64,000 nt of DNA from Candidatus Borrarchaeum weybense. Lineage in GTDB: Archaea > Asgardarchaeota > Sifarchaeia > Borrarchaeales > Borrarchaeaceae. A model generated the notes under the pieces. That model was not told the origin of the DNA, did no database searches, and was given only the letters and a program-made list of their open reading frames with translations. This document shows, in pieces, positions 26,177 through 58,217 of this stretch. Each line of letters begins with the position of its first letter. The stretch's first letter is position 1. The stretch spans positions 619,685-683,684 of the forward strand of contig JAHQJS010000007.1 of NCBI GenBank assembly GCA_019057385.1, written 5' to 3'. The position numbers and the translations under genes are program-made.

Positions 26177-26553
26177 ATCTTCTATAACCATCGAAAAACT
26201 TATTTCTTTTTAAAAACGATTCTAACTGAGATTTCTCAAGCCAGATTATGGACACTCCGTAATACATAATATATTATTATTACCGTTAGTTCTGCTCTTT
26301 TGACAAATTTAAGACACCAAAATGAAATCAGGATGTTATTTGAACATATGTTCTAAATTTCGTACGGAAAAAACTATTGACACTACAACAATTGGTTTTT
26401 GATTGGTATAATGGGTTTAGTTATTCCTATTTTCCGTTGTTTTTATATGTGAAATGCGCAAATAGTCATACTAAATTAATCGAATTAATAGGTATTTGAC
26501 AAAAAATCATCACGAAGTTGAGGAATCAAAAAAAAACAAAGGAAGTTCTTCCT

Positions 26554-27492
26554 ATGCAAAAATTGAAACTCCGAGAAGCAGACAAACTGGAAGTCACGAT
26601 TTTAGAGGATAATTATACAGATCTTCTCTTGCTTCAGAGCACAGATGTACTCAAACGACCTCGAATTCCACCTCCGAATTCACTTCTAGCCGCACATGGT
26701 TTGTCATGTCTCATCAAAGTCTATGCGGATTCGGAGATACATACCGTTTTAATGGACGCAGGCATATCAGAAACTAGTCTCCTCCACAATATGGCCATTT
26801 TAGGTATAGATCCAACAAAAATTGAGGCCATAGTTTTAAGTCATGGTCATTTTGACCATTTTGGAGGTCTGGTGGGAGTTCTAAAGAGGACTAAGCAGGA
26901 AATACCGCTTGTTCTTCATCCAGAGGCTTTCCTCCAGCGCCGTCTTAATATCCCCCGTAGAGAAAAACCGGTGAACATGCCAACATTAAGCGAACAAACT
27001 TTGAAGGAGGCTGGAGCATCACTTAACAAATCGAAGAAACCTTCCACAGTAGCATCAGATCTTATCTTAATATCGGGAGAAGTGGAACGAGTGACGGATT
27101 TTGAGAAAGGTTTTCCTTGGGCTGAAGCGAAAATTGAAGATAGCTGGATTGTAGACCCTTTCAATGATGATCAAGGGATAGCAGTTAACATCAAGGATCG
27201 TGGACTGGTAGTTATCGGTGGGTGCTCTCACGCTGGAATCATAAATACAGTCAAGTATCTCAAGAAAATTTCTCAGACGGATAGTATTCATGCAGTTTTA
27301 GGCGGATTTCATCTTACAGGACCGGCGTTTGAGTCAGTCATTGCGCCAACGATTAAGGAAATGAAGAGTATAGGTCCTGATTTTGTAGTTCCTATGCATT
27401 GCACCGGATGGAAAGCTATCAACCAGTTCGCCAAGGAGATGCCTGGCGAATTCTTTCTTAATACTGTGGGAACAACTTATGTGTTTCAATAA
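26554..27492 (+). CDS. MBL-fold metallo-hydrolase (COG1237-like)
   Basis: HGLS, LSHGHFDHFGG, GCSHAG, GGFHL, PMHCTG. Confidence 0.85.
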   Translation: MQKLKLREADKLEVTILEDNYTDLLLLQSTDVLKRPRIPPPNSLLAAHGLSCLIKVYADSEIHTVLMDAGISETSLLHNMAILGIDPTKIEAIVLSHGHFDHFGGLVGVLKRTKQEIPLVLHPEAFLQRRLNIPRREKPVNMPTLSEQTLKEAGASLNKSKKPSTVASDLILISGEVERVTDFEKGFPWAEAKIEDSWIVDPFNDDQGIAVNIKDRGLVVIGGCSHAGIINTVKYLKKISQTDSIHAVLGGFHLTGPAFESVIAPTIKEMKSIGPDFVVPMHCTGWKAINQFAKEMPGEFFLNTVGTTYVFQ

Positions 27493-27661
27493 TTAAGGAG
27501 CTCTGTAACTTTCAACCATGAGATATAAGCTTTTTTATAGATTTGTTGGCGAGAAGACCACCCAACAAGTTGGGGGGGATTTTAGCTTTGAAACAGCCTT
27601 ATCTCTTCATTTCTAGAAAAGCTATAATGAATTGAAGGCAGCGGATAACAATCACACTTTC

Positions 27662-28540
27662 TTAAGTTCTAATACTTAACAGCCAGAAATAACCATTCCC
27701 AGCTTTTTTTCTCACCACGCTACCCTCAGACTCAAGAATTTTCAACATCTCTTCGGCTTGTTGGCTCGTTAAATCGAAGGCTTCAGCTACTTCTTTGGTA
27801 GCCACTTTGTTATATTTATGAACGAAAACTAAAATGTTTTCACTGGTCGCTTCAGGCATCTTCTTGACTAACTCGTCTCCTGCCAGATCGTTAAAAATTC
27901 TTTCAAAAAATTCAAAGCTCCTATATCCGCTCAGAAGCACTCGTTTTCCCTGTCTGTTCGTAATGATAAAAGTTGGGTACGCTTTGCTACCTGAGGCTCT
28001 AAACTCCTCAAGATCTTCGTAAAAGGCCTGTTCAGCTGAGCTGTTTTCAAGAGCATTGATGAACTTCTCTGAATCTAAGCCTACTTTTTTTGCCAACTCA
28101 ACCTGTACCTCTCTCTTATGTATAAATCTACGTTCAGCTGATGCTGCTTCCCTCATTCTCCTTAGAAATCTATCGGCTAATTCTGGGTCCTGCATTTGCG
28201 CAGCCTTATAAGCTATGTTGGCGGGGTATGTGGAGTGGAATTCTCCTTGCAGATCTTGCCAAACTTGAACATCCACAGGCATGCCATGTCTCTCAGAAGC
28301 ATCTAACCAGTGTTGTGGAACCTGTTCTAACCACTGTGTTGTAATTTCTTCATCGAGGTCTTCAACGAGCCCACCTGCTTTGAAAAGTATCTTAACTTGG
28401 TCTCCGTAGACTTCTTTGATCTTCCTAAGGATAGGCTCAGTTCCCCAACACCACGTGCAGTAGGGATCCTGAAACTCTAGCAACTCAATAATATGGCGTG
28501 ACACGTGAATACCTTCGTTAGCATCTATAACGCAAGTCAA
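27662..28540 (-). CDS. DsbA/YjbH(SpxH)-like thioredoxin-fold protein
   Basis: DPYCTWCW, STYPA, YPT, C-terminal wHTH. Confidence 0.8.
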   Translation of the reverse strand: MTCVIDANEGIHVSRHIIELLEFQDPYCTWCWGTEPILRKIKEVYGDQVKILFKAGGLVEDLDEEITTQWLEQVPQHWLDASERHGMPVDVQVWQDLQGEFHSTYPANIAYKAAQMQDPELADRFLRRMREAASAERRFIHKREVQVELAKKVGLDSEKFINALENSSAEQAFYEDLEEFRASGSKAYPTFIITNRQGKRVLLSGYRSFEFFERIFNDLAGDELVKKMPEATSENILVFVHKYNKVATKEVAEAFDLTSQQAEEMLKILESEGSVVRKKAGNGYFWLLSIRT

Positions 28541-28757
28541 GGGTTCATAGTTTGAGCGATTATATTTCTATTGATAGAGGTGTGTTCTGGATGGGTGACT
28601 ACTCACAATTTTTTGGATGGAGCTTCTTACTTTGCCTAATTCAAATTGAGTTATTGCCTGTATACATATGGCCGCTGCTCGCATCAATCGTTAAAATATA
28701 TTCCAGAAAATTAAATAAAACTTTGATAAGTTTAGAGACTCCTTTACAGTTAGGAGG

Positions 28758-30227
28758 ATTAACAGTTCCCGTTAATGTAGTTTAACTTCACATAACTTCA
28801 TACTTCTGAAGCTTTCAGACTGCGGGTACACTTTTATAGTTATATGTTGGTGTCTGCCTGCTTATAAAGATGGTGTGACATACTGCTTAGTGTAAGTGAC
28901 CTATTATGGCTGCTATAACACTTTCTGGGGTTATCATCTCACTCGCAGACACACAGGCTCTGAAAGACCTTATGAGACGATTCAATACCGCTCGAAGGCG
29001 TGCCTTCTCTCTGAAACGCCAAGGTGTGCAGACCTGTACTATCGAAACCATCCTTCAGCAAGAAATCGGGCTTAATTCTCGCTATATTAAAGATGCGCAT
29101 TACTCCATAAAGAATTTGCCTTACAACACCACCTTTGGCGGGTTGAAGAACCAGCGGCTGCGTGAGAAAGGCACTATTACCAAGGAAGAATACAAGAAGC
29201 GCCGAAATGCGCTCCTGCTTTCTCACGGAGACCGTACCAAGCAGGGCAATCTCAATCTCAGACTCTATCTTGGCACAATGCAATTGCGCATCAATACCTG
29301 TCGCAACGATAAGGATAACAAGTGGATTTTTGCTAAGATATTCATCCCGCAAAAATATCTCGACAAATACGGTAGATATCTGGACGGGTCGCAGCCTTAC
29401 ACCGTACAAATTAAGCGGCGGAACTTTGATCAGGGTTATGACCTACGTATATCCATTAAACTACCTAGTGTGATACGGAAGGCCTCGCGAGCGATGACAC
29501 TAGACATAAATGCCGGGCACACCGATTTCGCAGTGATGAACAAGGACGATGGCAGGGTTATGTCGATAGGGAGGTTTAATCACTACGAAACACAGCACAC
29601 CAAGCAAGGAAAGCGTGAACATTTGTTGAATAAACTGGTGGAAAAGATCGGCAACCTTGCGAGACACTACGACGCCGAGGTGGTGGTCGGGCAACTCAAT
29701 ACGGGCAAGTTTTGGAGTTACAGCAAGAAAGCGACGAGAAAAATTCGCCAAATGCCGCAGTACAAGTTTCGACAGCTGTTGAAGCGGTTGGAATTGCAGG
29801 GTATAAAGGTGAATGAGAGGTCGGAGGCCTATACCAGCAAGTTAGGGGATGTGATCTCTCAAATAGTAGGTTATGACATCCACAAATGCGCGGCGATGAT
29901 GTTCGCCCTTAAGGTCATCAACTATGACTTATTCAAGCAGTTGAAGACATTTTTCTTCGGAGTTCCGTTATATGAGGCCTATGGAAGGCGGAGACGTGGA
30001 CGAAGGAGAAAAAGCGGGCTAACTGCCCCCATCCAGTACCGAATGTTTCTCAAAAGTATGAAATTCTGGATGGCGATGAAGTCCTCAATAATAGAGGATG
30101 GAGGCTACCTCCCGATTCCTGGTAGGGAGGGGTTGTCCTTGCTGGACAAATTAAAAGCGCCCTTCCCCTGTCTGACTATCAACATATGGTAACGTATATG
30201 AAGATATGGCAAGGTATCGTGACCAGG
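28758..30227 (+). mobile_element. non-autonomous TnpB-encoding IS (IS607-like boundaries) inserted at GGAGG|TGAA
   Basis: Joining the left flank TAGGAGG to the right flank TGAACTTATTTTG rebuilds an SD and csp start. Left-end hairpin ATTAAC-N7-GTTAAT and AACTTCA repeats; right end GACCAGG. Confidence 0.6.
28906..30192 (+). CDS. tnpB: TnpB-family RNA-guided nuclease with atypical RuvC
   Basis: LNSRY..DA, RuvC-I TLDIN, VVVGQL (G at the canonical E), EAYTSK, DIHKCAA; no zinc finger. Confidence 0.8.
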   Translation: MAAITLSGVIISLADTQALKDLMRRFNTARRRAFSLKRQGVQTCTIETILQQEIGLNSRYIKDAHYSIKNLPYNTTFGGLKNQRLREKGTITKEEYKKRRNALLLSHGDRTKQGNLNLRLYLGTMQLRINTCRNDKDNKWIFAKIFIPQKYLDKYGRYLDGSQPYTVQIKRRNFDQGYDLRISIKLPSVIRKASRAMTLDINAGHTDFAVMNKDDGRVMSIGRFNHYETQHTKQGKREHLLNKLVEKIGNLARHYDAEVVVGQLNTGKFWSYSKKATRKIRQMPQYKFRQLLKRLELQGIKVNERSEAYTSKLGDVISQIVGYDIHKCAAMMFALKVINYDLFKQLKTFFFGVPLYEAYGRRRRGRRRKSGLTAPIQYRMFLKSMKFWMAMKSSIIEDGGYLPIPGREGLSLLDKLKAPFPCLTINIW

Positions 30228-30237
30228 TGAACTTATT

Positions 30238-30327
30238 TTGCAGAGTACTGTCAAAAAATGGCTAGAATTTTAAGGATACGGATTTATACAACCAGACACA
30301 GGCGGAGAAGACGTTTTTATACACAAT
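30238..30327 (+). pseudogene. cold-shock protein pseudogene
   Basis: MQSTVKKWLEF*GYGFIQPDTGGEDVFIHN, with an internal stop and truncation; paralog of 30772. Confidence 0.85.
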
Positions 30328-30771
30328 TGTCTTTCGTCTATTAAAAAGATTTGGAACTTGCGATATTGTAACAATTAATGAATCTCAACCAGAATGTGAT
30401 CGTCAATTGGAAAGCTATAAGCCCCTACAACGTTTGCATAGGCTATCAGTTCAGCTTCTCATACATGAGGGAGATTTGTTTCAGATCAAACAAATAATTT
30501 TCTTCTTTTCAATTCTAAATATTTTGAAAGAAAAGAAAAGGAGAAAAGACGCACCACTTTTATTCCTTTGACTTTGTCCTACTTTCCTTTGGATCCCCAT
30601 CTTTCTGAGTTTCGCGTTAGGATTCTAGTTTCAAATAAGAACTAAAATTTCTCGTTACAACCAAAGGATTTAAAAGAGCTGCCTCGCATATGAACGAAAA
30701 AGAGTTTTTTTATTGACATTTTAGTTGACTTTTTTTGTTGATTTAGTTCGTTAAGTGGAGGTGAATTTGTT

Positions 30772-30969
30772 TTGCAGGGTACTGTCAAAAAATGGCTAGA
30801 TTTCAAAGGATTCGGATTTATAAAACCAGATACAGGTGGAGATGACATTTTTATCCACAATTCAGAAATAAAAGGTGCACATGATCTGAAAGAAGGACAA
30901 AAAGTCGAATTCGACGTAGAAGACTCATATAAGGGTCCGAAAGCCACCAATCTCAGAATAATTGAGTGA
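30772..30969 (+). CDS. cspA: cold-shock domain protein
   Basis: GTVKKW..KGFGFI (RNP1), DIFIHNS (RNP2), KGPKA; GGAGGTGA SD. Confidence 0.93.
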   Translation: MQGTVKKWLDFKGFGFIKPDTGGDDIFIHNSEIKGAHDLKEGQKVEFDVEDSYKGPKATNLRIIE

Positions 30970-31537
30970 AGCTGGCTTTAAAAACATTGTAAAGCCTTCC
31001 GCAATGTGAATATGTCGAAGATTAATAGAATGGAAGGAAGGATATTCTGACGTTCATTTTTCTGAAAATTAATTCACATCGTACTAACCGCATTAATTGG
31101 TAGCTCTATTGAAGAGGTGCACACTGAGAAAGAGTATTTCTGTGCCAGTCGGTCCAGAAGGTTCCTTTTTCAGTTTCACCGGTTTCATAGAATACTTTAG
31201 TGCGGCCATTGTATTTTCTTTTTCTAATTCTTTTTTCCCTCAACTCAATTATACGAAATAAAGTGGATTTTAAATAGGATAAATTAGAACATATGTTCAA
31301 AGAAATTTGAAGCTCATTTGAGTATAGTGCATTTATCATTTACAGAGACGTAATAGTTTTACACGAGCTCTATTCCATGTATTTCCATTGAGCAATTGCG
31401 TAGTATAGGTTTGAATTCTAATGCTATAAGTTTAAATTGATTGTATGACACTATCAGATAACTTTGACTAAGGTAATAACTAAATGTTTTTAAAGACATG
31501 ATCAGCATTCCAGTTAGGCATTCCAATTTGGAGGTTA

Positions 31538-57174: not shown

Positions 57175-57557
57175 TTTATTGATTATTTTTTTATTTTTGC
57201 GCTAAACATTCTTCTGTTTTCTTTATATGCTGATCAATTTCCTTTAGTAGTTTCTTATTAACTTATAATCTTCACGTTTTATTGAAATAATTGTCCGATA
57301 ATCGCGTTCATCAATTAAATGTCCGTTAAAGAGTTTGCAGAAAAACATATCTTAATATACTCCGAAAACATTTTTCTTAATTAGAATAGAGCTATGAATG
57401 TAGGTTAGTTTTCTATTATATCGAACTACTTTAGTTATACTGAGATCAAGCGGACATCTAAGTCAATTCGATCGTCTTAAAATAAAGTAGCAGATCATTT
57501 TAACATACCTACTTTGTAAGCTTTGCCGAATAAATATGACCATATGGAGGTGAAAAG

Positions 57558-58217
57558 ATGACACAGGAAAACAATCTACCACCAAAGGTTCCAACTAAAA
57601 TGCTGACAGAAGAAGTCCTAGATGGAATTACTAGCAGTGACTTACAAAGGGATACATATAGACCATATGGCATCTACATAACGACCAAGCGAATAATTGG
57701 TATAAAGCCAAATAAACTTCAGAAAATCAATCCTACGTGGTGGTTCGTTATTGTTCTAGGTATTGTGTTAGTGGGTACTCTCATTGGTTTAGGTGCATTA
57801 TTTGTTCCATTACTGATTGGTGGCTTTTTCTTGATTAGATTTATTCTAAGACGAACAATTTACAAACCAGATGATTTCTCTAAAAAAACGATAGAAGAAC
57901 TAGAAGAAAAAAGGGATTTCGAAGTATTTAAAGATGAGATAGAAGAAATCAGATTACAAGAACCGAAAGGAGCATTATTTGGTGGTCTAATGGGTGGATT
58001 CGGTGGACTTGGTGGATTTGGTAGATCAAGGAGAAGATCTAATCGTCCGTATAGAGACTTGGTTATTCAAGGTAATAAACGCGAATATAAAATCAATATC
58101 TTTAGAGGTAGCGCATTAGAGAAAATGTACGATATGTTTAATGAGCCTGAGACAATAGAGGATATATTTGAGCATGACAGAATGAAAGATATGCCTAATA
58201 ATCCTGCTATAGCATAA
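57558..58217 (+). CDS. membrane protein with PH-like segment and Gly-rich loop
   Basis: IYITTKRIIG, two TM helices, GGLMGGFGGLGGFG. Confidence 0.6.
   Translation: MTQENNLPPKVPTKMLTEEVLDGITSSDLQRDTYRPYGIYITTKRIIGIKPNKLQKINPTWWFVIVLGIVLVGTLIGLGALFVPLLIGGFFLIRFILRRTIYKPDDFSKKTIEELEEKRDFEVFKDEIEEIRLQEPKGALFGGLMGGFGGLGGFGRSRRRSNRPYRDLVIQGNKREYKINIFRGSALEKMYDMFNEPETIEDIFEHDRMKDMPNNPAIA

What the first reader, a model, noticed from the sequence alone, without database searches (positions are those of the whole stretch)
28751..30969. TnpB element split the SD of a csp paralog, so its predicted guide nearly matches the surviving csp translation start
Seen: removing 28758-30227 restores GGAGGTGA..TTG of a now-pseudogenised csp. 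The flank after the right end (TGAACTTATTTTGCAGAGTA, 30228-30247) matches 30762-30781 at 17/20, and that site is also preceded by GGAGG. Known: TnpB guides derive from the right flank, and nuclease-dead TnpBs (TldR) act as RNA-guided repressors. Inference: self-targeting of a host cold-shock gene, either avoided through mismatches at positions 5, 8 and 17 or a starting point for regulatory domestication.
Basis: partly seen in the sequence, partly recalled or inferred. Interest (0 to 1): 0.7.

Follow-up and report, generated by a model that had tools for sequence, protein, structure and literature searches.

The report
TnpB insertion sequence splitting csp ribosome-binding site
A 1.47-kb selfish element carrying an unusual RNA-guided TnpB protein sits exactly inside the ribosome-binding site of a dead cold-shock gene fragment in an Asgard archaeon; its guide resembles the living cold-shock gene only because the two are copies of one gene, and there is no sign of gene regulation.

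Summary
Removing 28758-30227 rejoins GGAGG to TGAAC..TTG and recreates the cold-shock (csp) leader seen in relatives. The flank 30228-30247 matches 30762-30781 at 17/20, and both sites follow GGAGG.

- **Element:** a TnpB-only insertion sequence. Its protein has the TnpB/Cas12f fold, no zinc finger, Gly at the RuvC-II Glu position and His at the RuvC-III Asp position (published clade RIIIr-4). It is under purifying selection (dN/dS about 0.1).
- **Guide RNA:** a roughly 220-nt structure with strong covariation. It ends in a pseudoknot that uses the last six bases, ACCAGG (30222-30227).
- **Near-match:** simple paralogy (88% over 104 nt). Two of the three mismatches lie in the seed region. Nothing indicates domestication: the ends are intact and insertions differ between related genomes.
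- **Wider pattern:** the family inserts after GGWGG, the Shine-Dalgarno core. In 7 of 16 sites this lies 5-13 nt before a gene start. The right end plus flank rebuilds AGGTGA.

The architecture resembles IS607 (GG at both junctions), but no cognate transposase was found. Short variable junction duplications remain unexplained. This scan noted an RBS-targeting IS607-type TnpB element before on other DNA (e1-3291349).

The parts
28748..28757 (+). Last 10 nt of a csp-type leader (AGTTAGGAGG). GGAGG at 28753-28757 is the Shine-Dalgarno core and the candidate transposon-adjacent motif (TAM) of the element.
   Evidence: Identical to the csp leader of relatives L044, L046 and L048 and of G004. The own 16S rRNA ends ..GGATCACCTCCT. 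Upstream of 28748 there is no csp promoter homology.
28758..30227 (+). TnpB-only insertion sequence, 1470 bp.
   Evidence: Copies L002 and L003 and copies from G003, G004 and metagenomes align only within these limits. Empty sites exist for three foreign copies. An IS-less csp leader is seen in relatives.
28758..28905 (+). Left end, non-coding. It has a variable 3-nt prefix (ATT), then the conserved AACAGTT.., and a subterminal inverted-repeat arm at 28783-28802.
   Evidence: Junction table. Inverted repeat I1: 20 nt, 80% complementary to 30197-30216.
28906..30192 (+). tnpB-like gene, 428 aa. RuvC-I D200; Gly262 at the canonical RuvC-II Glu; Glu307 as a possible substitute; D324-I-H326 at RuvC-III; no CxxC zinc finger.
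   Evidence: NCBIfam TIGR01766, 36.4 bits against a cut-off of 32. Precomputed Pfam PF27229 SSO2105_N. Alignment A2. Profile against PDB hits Cas12f and TnpB. AlphaFold2 model pLDDT 81.8, with Foldseek hits to Cas12f, Cas12k, TnpB and Fanzor2. dN/dS 0.08-0.17.
30009..30227 (+). omegaRNA-like scaffold overlapping the 3' end of the ORF. The hairpin loop CCTGGT (30118-30123) forms a pseudoknot with the terminal ACCAGG (30222-30227).
   Evidence: On 17 sequences, 96.6% of cells are paired against 84.5% in shuffles. Twenty pairs show compensatory change, 0/500 shuffles reach this, and slid controls give 36-56%. The pseudoknot pair reads UA:10, AU:7, none broken. Synonymous divergence is 2-4 times lower in codons 316 to the end. 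No Rfam family matches.
30228..30247 (+). Predicted guide segment: the first 20 nt of the right flank, which is the csp leader and first codons.
   Evidence: Inferred from the scaffold end at 30227 and from the known TnpB layout (10.1101/2023.11.20.567912). No RNA 3' end has been measured.
30228..30328 (+). csp pseudogene fragment. TTG start at 30238, in-frame TAA at 30271-30273, homology ends at about 30328.
   Evidence: 88% identical to the own csp, 93% to the G003 csp, 90% to L048. tblastn reports one TAA.
30757..30781 (+). GGAGG plus the 20-nt near-match (17/20) at the translation start of the intact csp.
30772..30969 (+). Intact cold-shock protein gene, 65 aa.
   Evidence: Pfam CSD, 1.4e-21. 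The promoter and gene from 30626 to 31000 are 92% identical to the single csp of relatives.
28582..28747 (.). Lineage-specific DNA to the left of the element. No homologue was found.
30329..30625 (.). Lineage-specific DNA between the csp fragment and the resident csp promoter.
   Evidence: The stretch 30577-30625 is shared only with G002 and G003.

Best explanation
Bases 28758-30227 are a non-autonomous, TnpB-only insertion sequence of an Asgard archaeon (genus of Candidatus Borrarchaeum).

**Shown.**
- It lies between GGAGG and TGA of the perfect Shine-Dalgarno sequence of a csp 5' fragment.
- Its protein has the TnpB/Cas12f fold with the RIIIr-4 signature (His at RuvC-III, no zinc finger) plus Gly at RuvC-II. 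It is kept by purifying selection.
- Its last roughly 220 nt encode a conserved structured RNA whose pseudoknot uses the terminal ACCAGG.

**Inferred.**
- The transcript continues into the flank, so this copy's guide is the csp leader. As in other TnpB elements, the guide serves to recognise the unoccupied form of its own insertion site (GGAGG plus leader).
- The 17/20 match to the living csp 534 bp downstream is a by-product of homology and has no function.
- The family inserts after GGWGG, the Shine-Dalgarno core. It therefore often lands 5-13 nt before start codons. Its end CCAGG joined to the target's TGA leaves AGGTGA for the downstream gene, which would explain why such insertions are tolerated.
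- The csp copy hit here had lost, or never had, a promoter and its 3' part. The resident csp supplies the function.
For: - **Boundaries and empty sites:**
- **Structured RNA:** covariation including the pseudoknot (UA:10, AU:7). Suppressed dS in the overlap.
- **Protein:**. The clade is described in PMC10691335.
- **Selection:** dN/dS 0.08-0.17.
- **Target preference:**
  - Ten of twelve left flanks read GGWGG.
  - Seven of sixteen right flanks start a gene within 5-13 nt. The genome-wide figure for GGWGG sites is 11.4%, giving a binomial p of about 0.001-0.004.
  - Three empty sites in G000 are SD plus ATG.
- **Anti-SD sequence:**
- **Paralogy of the near-match:**
- **Layout shared with IS607 elements:** GG at both junctions, scaffold ending in GG, TAM ending in GG (10.1101/2023.11.20.567912).
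Against: - No RNA data fix the 3' end of the guide RNA. Only two low-depth metatranscriptome contigs of a related strain cross the right junction.
- Nuclease activity of this His/Gly variant has never been shown.
- No cognate transposase lies in the element. The genome holds only a Y1 TnpA paired with a canonical TnpB, and a non-IS607 serine recombinase.
- Nine of sixteen insertions are not at gene starts. One (L003) is in the Gly-Gly codons at the end of a ubiquitin-like gene, so the preference is for the motif, not for the function.
- The left flank shows no csp promoter. The insertion may therefore have happened elsewhere, and the whole block may have arrived together.
- Translation from the rebuilt AGGTGA is untested.
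Confidence: 0.8

Rival explanations
1. The TnpB-guide RNA complex of this copy acts on the intact csp start site, either as a tolerated self-target or as an emerging RNA-guided repressor (TldR-like).
For: - GGAGG plus a 17/20 match lies at 30757-30781.
- The canonical RuvC-II Glu and RuvC-III Asp are both replaced, so a binding-only protein cannot be excluded.
- Dra2 TnpB can bind targets with TAM-distal mismatches (PMC12803034).
Against: - Mismatches at positions 5 and 8 lie within the seed.
- The match is inherited homology.
- The His and Gly replacements are clade-wide and occur in mobile, multi-copy elements under purifying selection. PMC10691335 judges them probably active.
- The element keeps both ends, and its guide is simply its own flank.
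- Relatives without the element have the same csp.
Confidence: 0.05
2. The element did not insert here. It entered the SD of a complete csp in another genome or place. The block 28582-30625 (element plus about 10 nt of leader, 101 nt of csp and unrelated flanks) later arrived between dsbA and the resident csp promoter, by recombination or horizontal transfer.
For: - Relatives have dsbA, about 320 nt, then a single csp. The window shares only 28445-28581 and 30626 onward with them.
- The flanks 28582-28747 and 30329-30576 are unique.
- There is no promoter homology to the left of the element.
- The csp fragment is closer to the G003 and L048 alleles than to the own csp.
- The larger stretch 26440-30576 is absent in G003 and is bordered by a 13/15 direct repeat.
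Against: - The fragment lies at the same place and in the same orientation relative to dsbA as the ancestral csp (217 nt against about 305 nt from the dsbA start). This also fits a local insertion followed by decay.
- No donor was found.
Confidence: 0.3
3. The GGAGG at 28753-28757 belongs to the element's left end. It is not a split host Shine-Dalgarno sequence.
For: Every copy has AGGWGG 3-7 nt before AACAGTT. L002 and L042 share CAGGTGGTTGA.
Against: - Empty sites in G000 for the G004 and L019 copies contain a single GGAGG(TG).
- IS-less csp leaders read AGTTAGGAGGTGA.
- The distance from GGWGG to AACAGTT varies.
Confidence: 0.03

Closest known systems
IS607-family TnpB elements (for example the Clostridium botulinum IStron; TAM TGGG, scaffold ending ..UCGG; 10.1101/2023.11.20.567912)
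   Same: - GG lies at both junctions.
- The target motif ends in GG.
- The guide RNA scaffold ends in GG and differs from the target motif just upstream (CC against GG). This would spare the occupied site from self-cleavage.
- The guide is taken from the right flank.
- There are no terminal inverted repeats.
   Different: - There is no serine transposase in the element, and none of IS607 type in the genome.
- Copy-specific duplications of 0-6 nt follow the GG.
- The base before GG in the target equals that of the right end in 10 of 12 copies.
- The protein lacks the zinc finger and has His at RuvC-III.
- There is no intron.
- The host is an archaeon.
TnpB clade RIIIr-4 of Altae-Tran et al. 2023 (PMC10691335), including the RHH/MazE-TnpB systems
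   Same: The RuvC-III Asp is replaced by His and the C4 zinc finger is absent. Distant relatives (P0068, L052, L054) have the small upstream ORF overlapping the start, as described for MazE-TnpB.
   Different: - The window's subclade also has Gly at RuvC-II with a candidate substitute Glu (as in RIIr-5).
- It is a free-standing mobile element without the small ORF.
- Placement in the published tree was not computed here.
ISDra2 / IS200-IS605 TnpB with omegaRNA (PDB 8exa, 8h1j)
   Same: The same fold, a guide RNA overlapping the 3' end of the gene, a pseudoknot next to the guide, and a presumed homing role for the guide.
   Different: - No Y1 transposase is linked.
- The target is GGWGG, not TTGAT.
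- The catalytic residues differ.
- Sequence similarity is only marginal (Foldseek E = 3e-4).
TldR, nuclease-dead TnpB-derived repressors (PMC10705468)
   Same: The canonical RuvC residues are altered, and a guide lies near a host gene start.
   Different: TldRs are immobile, have lost transposon ends, and carry conserved guides against a promoter. Here the element is mobile, multi-copy and guided by its own flank.

Membership tests
TnpB / OMEGA RNA-guided nucleases | TnpB/Cas12f-type fold with a RuvC domain | tested here: met
   TIGR01766 above its cut-off. Profile hits to Cas12f and TnpB chains. Foldseek E = 1e-9 to 1e-4 against Cas12f, Cas12k, TnpB and Fanzor2.
TnpB / OMEGA RNA-guided nucleases | Canonical Asp-Glu-Asp RuvC triad | tested here: not met
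   D200 is present. Gly262 replaces the Glu and His326 replaces the Asp. Glu307 and Asp324 are candidate substitutes. No activity data exist.
TnpB / OMEGA RNA-guided nucleases | C4 zinc finger between RuvC-II and RuvC-III | tested here: not met
   There is no CxxC pair. Only about 12 residues separate YTS from the RuvC-III motif.
TnpB / OMEGA RNA-guided nucleases | Structured guide RNA overlapping the 3' end of the gene and ending at the right transposon end | tested here: met
   Covariation in 20 of 39 pairs, with a pseudoknot to the last 6 nt. Low dS in the overlap. The RNA itself has not been observed.
TnpB / OMEGA RNA-guided nucleases | RNA-guided, TAM-dependent DNA cleavage | not testable with these tools
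   Needs expression and a plasmid-interference or TAM-library assay.
TnpB clade RIIIr-4 (PMC10691335) | RuvC-III Asp replaced by His, and no zinc finger | tested here: met
   H326 is at least 90% conserved in A2. The paper's text was read. Tree placement was not done.
IS607 | Serine recombinase TnpA (HTH first, then the catalytic domain) in the element or genome | tested here: not met
   The 148-nt left end holds no gene. The only PF00239 hit in G000 is a Resolvase+Recombinase protein elsewhere.
IS607 | GG core dinucleotide at both junctions | tested here: met
   All right ends finish in WGG. Eleven of twelve left flanks finish in GG.
IS607 | No target-site duplication | tested here: inconclusive
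   Copy-specific repeats of 0-6 nt follow the GG (TGA, ATGA, TGGG, TTTGTG, TGGCC). The window copy has none.
IS200/IS605 | Y1 (HUH) TnpA, and insertion 3' of a fixed 4-5-nt motif without duplication | tested here: inconclusive
   A fixed motif, GGWGG, is present. The one Y1 TnpA in G000 belongs to an unrelated canonical element.
TldR-type domesticated TnpB | Immobile single locus, lost ends, conserved guide against a host promoter | tested here: not met
   The ends are conserved. There are three diverged copies. Insertions are present or absent between G000, G003 and G004.
CspA-type cold-shock protein (gene at 30772-30969) | Cold-shock domain | tested here: met
   PF00313, 1.4e-21. The fragment at 30228-30328 covers only about 30 codons and contains a stop.

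The most novel reading that the evidence does not exclude
This zinc-finger-less, His-variant TnpB family may move by a chemistry that is neither classical IS605 nor IS607.
- It chooses GGWGG sites whose middle base must equal that of its own right end, the same base that pairs in the guide RNA pseudoknot. This suggests that a nucleic acid reads the site.
- It leaves a variable 0-6-nt duplication.
- It thereby homes to Shine-Dalgarno cores while rebuilding a working one for the downstream gene.
Probability: 0.25. Interest if true: 0.65.

Novelty: new variant of a known kind. Interest (0 to 1): 0.4.

Why it matters
**For the flagged idea, the result is sobering.** The guide-to-csp resemblance is inherited homology, not regulation.

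**What remains useful.**
- The work gives a complete, testable parts list for an uncharacterised, compact (428 aa) TnpB type from Asgard archaea. It covers the element ends, a guide RNA scaffold with a covariation-backed pseudoknot, the guide start, and a candidate TAM (GGWGG).
- The family's habit of landing in ribosome-binding sites while leaving AGGTGA behind is a plausible way for a transposon to sit in front of genes, and even inside operons, without silencing them.
- The match between target and right-end bases, and the variable junction duplications, point to an unresolved step in how such TnpB-only elements move.

Tried and rejected
**Searches that returned nothing.**
- Local Pfam gave no TnpB hit for the ORF.
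- phmmer against PDB found nothing.
- Rfam at E <= 1 found no family in 28000-31500, so no RAGATH-18-like RNA by that test.
- The literature search for TnpB plus Shine-Dalgarno found nothing on such targeting.
- 'SSO2105' occurs in no held paper.
- The IS607 paper PMC110970 is not held.
Linkage of distant family members to a transposase therefore stays untested.

**Tests that gave no signal.**
- A single-sequence fold of 29980-30250 was not significant (z = -1.3). Only the comparative analysis showed the structure.
- The left flank 28450-28757 against the csp promoter gave a score below the shuffle mean.
- The flanks 28582-28747 and 30329-30625 have no homologue in G000, in relatives or in fetched loci.
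- The dsbA neighbourhood in G001 has no csp.

**Read data.**
- No contig joins 28757 directly to 30228 in the four runs laid.
- The 'goes back' joints are contigs of the intact csp that also fit the fragment.
- The RNA contigs of run X16 (depth 2, 92-93% identical) are only a weak hint of transcription across the right junction.

**Readings considered and dropped.**
- AGGAGG as part of the element.
- A classical fixed-length target duplication.
- Carry-over of the previous donor's flank as the source of the variable left-end prefix. This fails because the prefixes match the current right flank.
Full report
**Observation.**
- GGAGG ends at 28757.
- 28758-30227 is extra DNA.
- From 30228 the sequence reads TGAACTTATTTTG followed by a csp-like frame, which stops at a TAA after 11 codons (30271-30273).
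- BLAST of the region against the whole assembly shows that 30225-30328 is 88% identical to the start of the intact csp at 30759-30862 (E = 5e-30).
- The 20 nt from 30228 match 30762-30781 at 17/20. Both are preceded by GGAGG.

The window is G000:C7:619685-683684. G000 is an Asgard genome of the same genus as Candidatus Borrarchaeum yapensis. It has 8 contigs, and marker-gene contamination is estimated at 7%.

**Boundaries.**
Several lines fix the element at 28758-30227.
- The assembly holds two more full copies (L002 at 79%, L003 at 80%) and a fragment.
- Relatives G003 and G004 and several metagenome contigs hold further copies.
- All alignments begin 0-3 nt before a conserved AACAGTT (28761) and end in ..GTGACCWGG (30227).
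- For three foreign copies, G000 carries the unoccupied site. Each is a single GGAGG(TG) followed 5-10 nt later by an ATG. One of these lies in this window at 57546.
- Relatives with an uninterrupted csp (L044, L046 from GCA_029856345.1, L048, G003, G004) read AGTTAGGAGG directly followed by TGA(A)C..TTTTGCAGGG. This is exactly the window's 28748-28757 joined to 30228 onward.
- The own 16S rRNA ends GGATCACCTCCT, so GGAGGTGA is a perfect Shine-Dalgarno sequence.

**Guide RNA.**
- The last 350 nt of the copies are 89% identical, against about 78% for the rest.
- Synonymous divergence in codons 316 to the end is 2-4 times lower than in codons 1-315.
- An alignment of 17 right ends, including homologues at only 43-52% protein identity, supports a nested structure plus a pseudoknot.
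  - 96.6% of cells are paired, against 84.5% in shuffles.
  - Twenty pairs show compensatory changes.
  - No shuffle out of 500 reaches the observed values.
  - Slid controls give 36-56% paired.
- The pseudoknot joins a hairpin loop CCWGGU (window 30118-30123) to the terminal ACCWGG (30222-30227). Its central pair is U-A in 10 sequences and A-U in 7, and is never broken.
- The terminal WGG is therefore element-encoded.
- No Rfam family matches, and a single-sequence fold is unremarkable.

**Protein.**
- The 428-aa ORF scores above the cut-off for NCBIfam TIGR01766.
- It carries the precomputed Pfam family PF27229, SSO2105_N.
- As a profile it hits Cas12f and TnpB chains.
- It folds (pLDDT 81.8) into a structure that Foldseek matches to Cas12f, Cas12k, ISFba1 and ISDra2 TnpB, and Fanzor2.
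- In alignment A2:
  - D200 (RuvC-I) is invariant.
  - The canonical RuvC-II Glu is Gly262 in this subclade. More distant members keep the Glu. Glu307, 45 residues downstream, replaces the Pro of the NPAYTS motif in those members.
  - The RuvC-III Asp position is His326 in at least 90% of the family.
  - There is no zinc finger.
- Altae-Tran et al. 2023 (PMC10691335) describe exactly these states: major clade RIIIr-4 (Asp to His, no zinc finger, including RHH/MazE-linked forms) and RuvC-II Glu to Gly with a substitute Glu. They judge them probably active. No experiment is known to me.
- Among element copies dN/dS is 0.08-0.17, so the protein is functional for something.

**Target preference.**

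Left flanks:
- With the right end fixed, ten of twelve left flanks end in GGAGG or GGTGG. One ends in AAGG and one in GCGGG.

Right flanks:
- Seven of sixteen distinct right flanks begin a gene 5-13 nt after the GG:
  - the csp fragment;
  - an iorB-like gene;
  - ORFs of 220 aa and 279 aa (the latter resembles rsmA by eye);
  - ORFs of 80 aa and 67 aa;
  - a formamidase-family gene.
- Genome-wide, 11.4% of GGWGG sites are followed by such an ORF. This gives a binomial p of about 0.001-0.004.
- The preference is for the motif, not the function.

Consequence (inference):
- Because the element ends in CCAGG and the target continues TGA, the downstream gene keeps AGGTGA at the original spacing. 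The downstream ORFs are intact in five of the six non-csp cases.

**History of the csp fragment.**
- Relatives have dsbA(-), about 320 nt, a single csp(+), then psmA(+).
- The window shares with them only 28445-28581 (the dsbA start) and 30626 onward (csp promoter and gene, 92%).
- Between these lie 176 nt of unique DNA, the element, 101 nt of csp, and 297 nt of mostly unique DNA.
- To the left of the element, csp homology is limited to 10 nt, and no promoter similarity exists.
- A larger stretch, 26440-30576, is absent in G003. It is bordered by a 13/15 direct repeat (26425-26439 and 30577-30591).
- Either the element entered a csp copy here that then decayed, or the block came in as a unit. 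I give the second about 0.3.
- In both cases the element entered the Shine-Dalgarno sequence of a csp gene.
- Run X5 holds both the element-bearing form and an element-less dsbA-csp relative.

**Self-targeting.**
- The near-match is what any insertion into one of two homologous leaders must give.
- Positions 5 and 8 lie in the SD-to-start spacer, which differs among all orthologues. Position 17 is private to the pseudogene.
- In characterised TnpBs, mismatches in the first roughly 8 bp block R-loop formation, and 12-16 bp of pairing are needed for cleavage (PMC12803034).
- An unrelated 17/20 site without the motif exists elsewhere.
- The guide RNA is sense to csp mRNA.
- The element has none of the marks of a domesticated TldR. 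I put the regulatory reading at about 0.05.

**Comparison.**
The layout is closest to IS607-family elements. There the serine transposase and TnpB both use a GG-ending motif (TGGG), and the scaffold ends ..UCGG, differing from the TAM just upstream (10.1101/2023.11.20.567912). Here the corresponding pair is GGWGG against CCWGG.

The differences are:
- No transposase gene lies in the 148-nt left end.
- The genome has only a Y1 TnpA with a canonical TnpB, and a Resolvase+Recombinase protein that does not show the IS607 domain order.
- There is only a subterminal imperfect inverted repeat.

**Unexplained.**
1. The 3-7 nt between the target GG and AACAGTT vary from copy to copy. They often repeat the first bases of that copy's right flank (TGA, ATGA, TGGG, TTTGTG, TGGCC), far more than chance allows. 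Yet L002 and L042 share one prefix. The window copy has no such repeat.
2. The middle base of the target GGWGG equals that of the right end in 10 of 12 copies. This is the same base that covaries in the pseudoknot.
3. It is unknown what mobilises the element.

**Verdict.**
This scan has already met an IS607-type TnpB element splitting a ribosome-binding site in another genome (e1-3291349), so the placement is a family habit, not a singular event.

Noticed in passing
window 57546-57567: An unoccupied target of the same element family. GGAGGTGA is followed by AAAG and then the ATG of a gene. The metagenome copy L019 sits exactly here in a relative.
   Followed up: partly
window 26425-26439 and 30577-30591: A 13/15 direct repeat borders a 4.1-kb stretch that is absent in relative G003. 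The stretch holds an MBL-fold ORF (26518-27492), a DsbA-HTH gene (27662-28540), the element and the csp fragment. In G003, 26439 abuts 30577.
   Followed up: partly
G000:C4:1188766-1188942 (L037): A third, distant csp-like gene (41% identical) lies about 890 nt downstream of the L002 copy of the element, beyond the iorB-like gene. This is probably coincidence.
   Followed up: no
L003 (G000:C5:304.4-305.9 kb): This copy sits in the GGT GGT GGG codons at the C-terminus of a ubiquitin-like (SAMP/MoaD-type) ORF. It therefore separates the Gly-Gly end from its stop codon.
   Followed up: partly
G000:C5:332567-335232 (L062): The 16S rRNA match spans 2.67 kb for a 1.48-kb model. The gene therefore carries about 1.2 kb of inserted sequence, either introns or an insertion.
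   Followed up: no
G000, many loci (seen with L019 and L020 left flanks): Two other repeat families. One is a roughly 69-nt repeat with more than 35 copies at about 90% identity. The other is a roughly 445-nt repeat with at least 7 copies at 86-89%.
   Followed up: no
L063-L067 (ANME-1 contigs): The 50%-identical homologue P0068 lies in a fixed context. A 63-aa ORF overlaps its start (the ATGTCTAA junction also seen in L052 and L054), and it sits next to a second, canonical TnpB. This matches the published RHH/MazE-TnpB arrangement, yet it keeps the same RNA structure ending in ACCWGG.
   Followed up: partly
L021, L022, L013: The copy in front of the gene that looks like rsmA has a broken tnpB ORF (longest frame 317 aa). 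The downstream 279-aa gene is intact.
   Followed up: no
G000:C7:194149-195877 (L060): A canonical IS200/IS605 element (Y1 TnpA of 156 aa plus a zinc-finger TnpB of 428 aa). It is unrelated in sequence to the element studied.
   Followed up: partly
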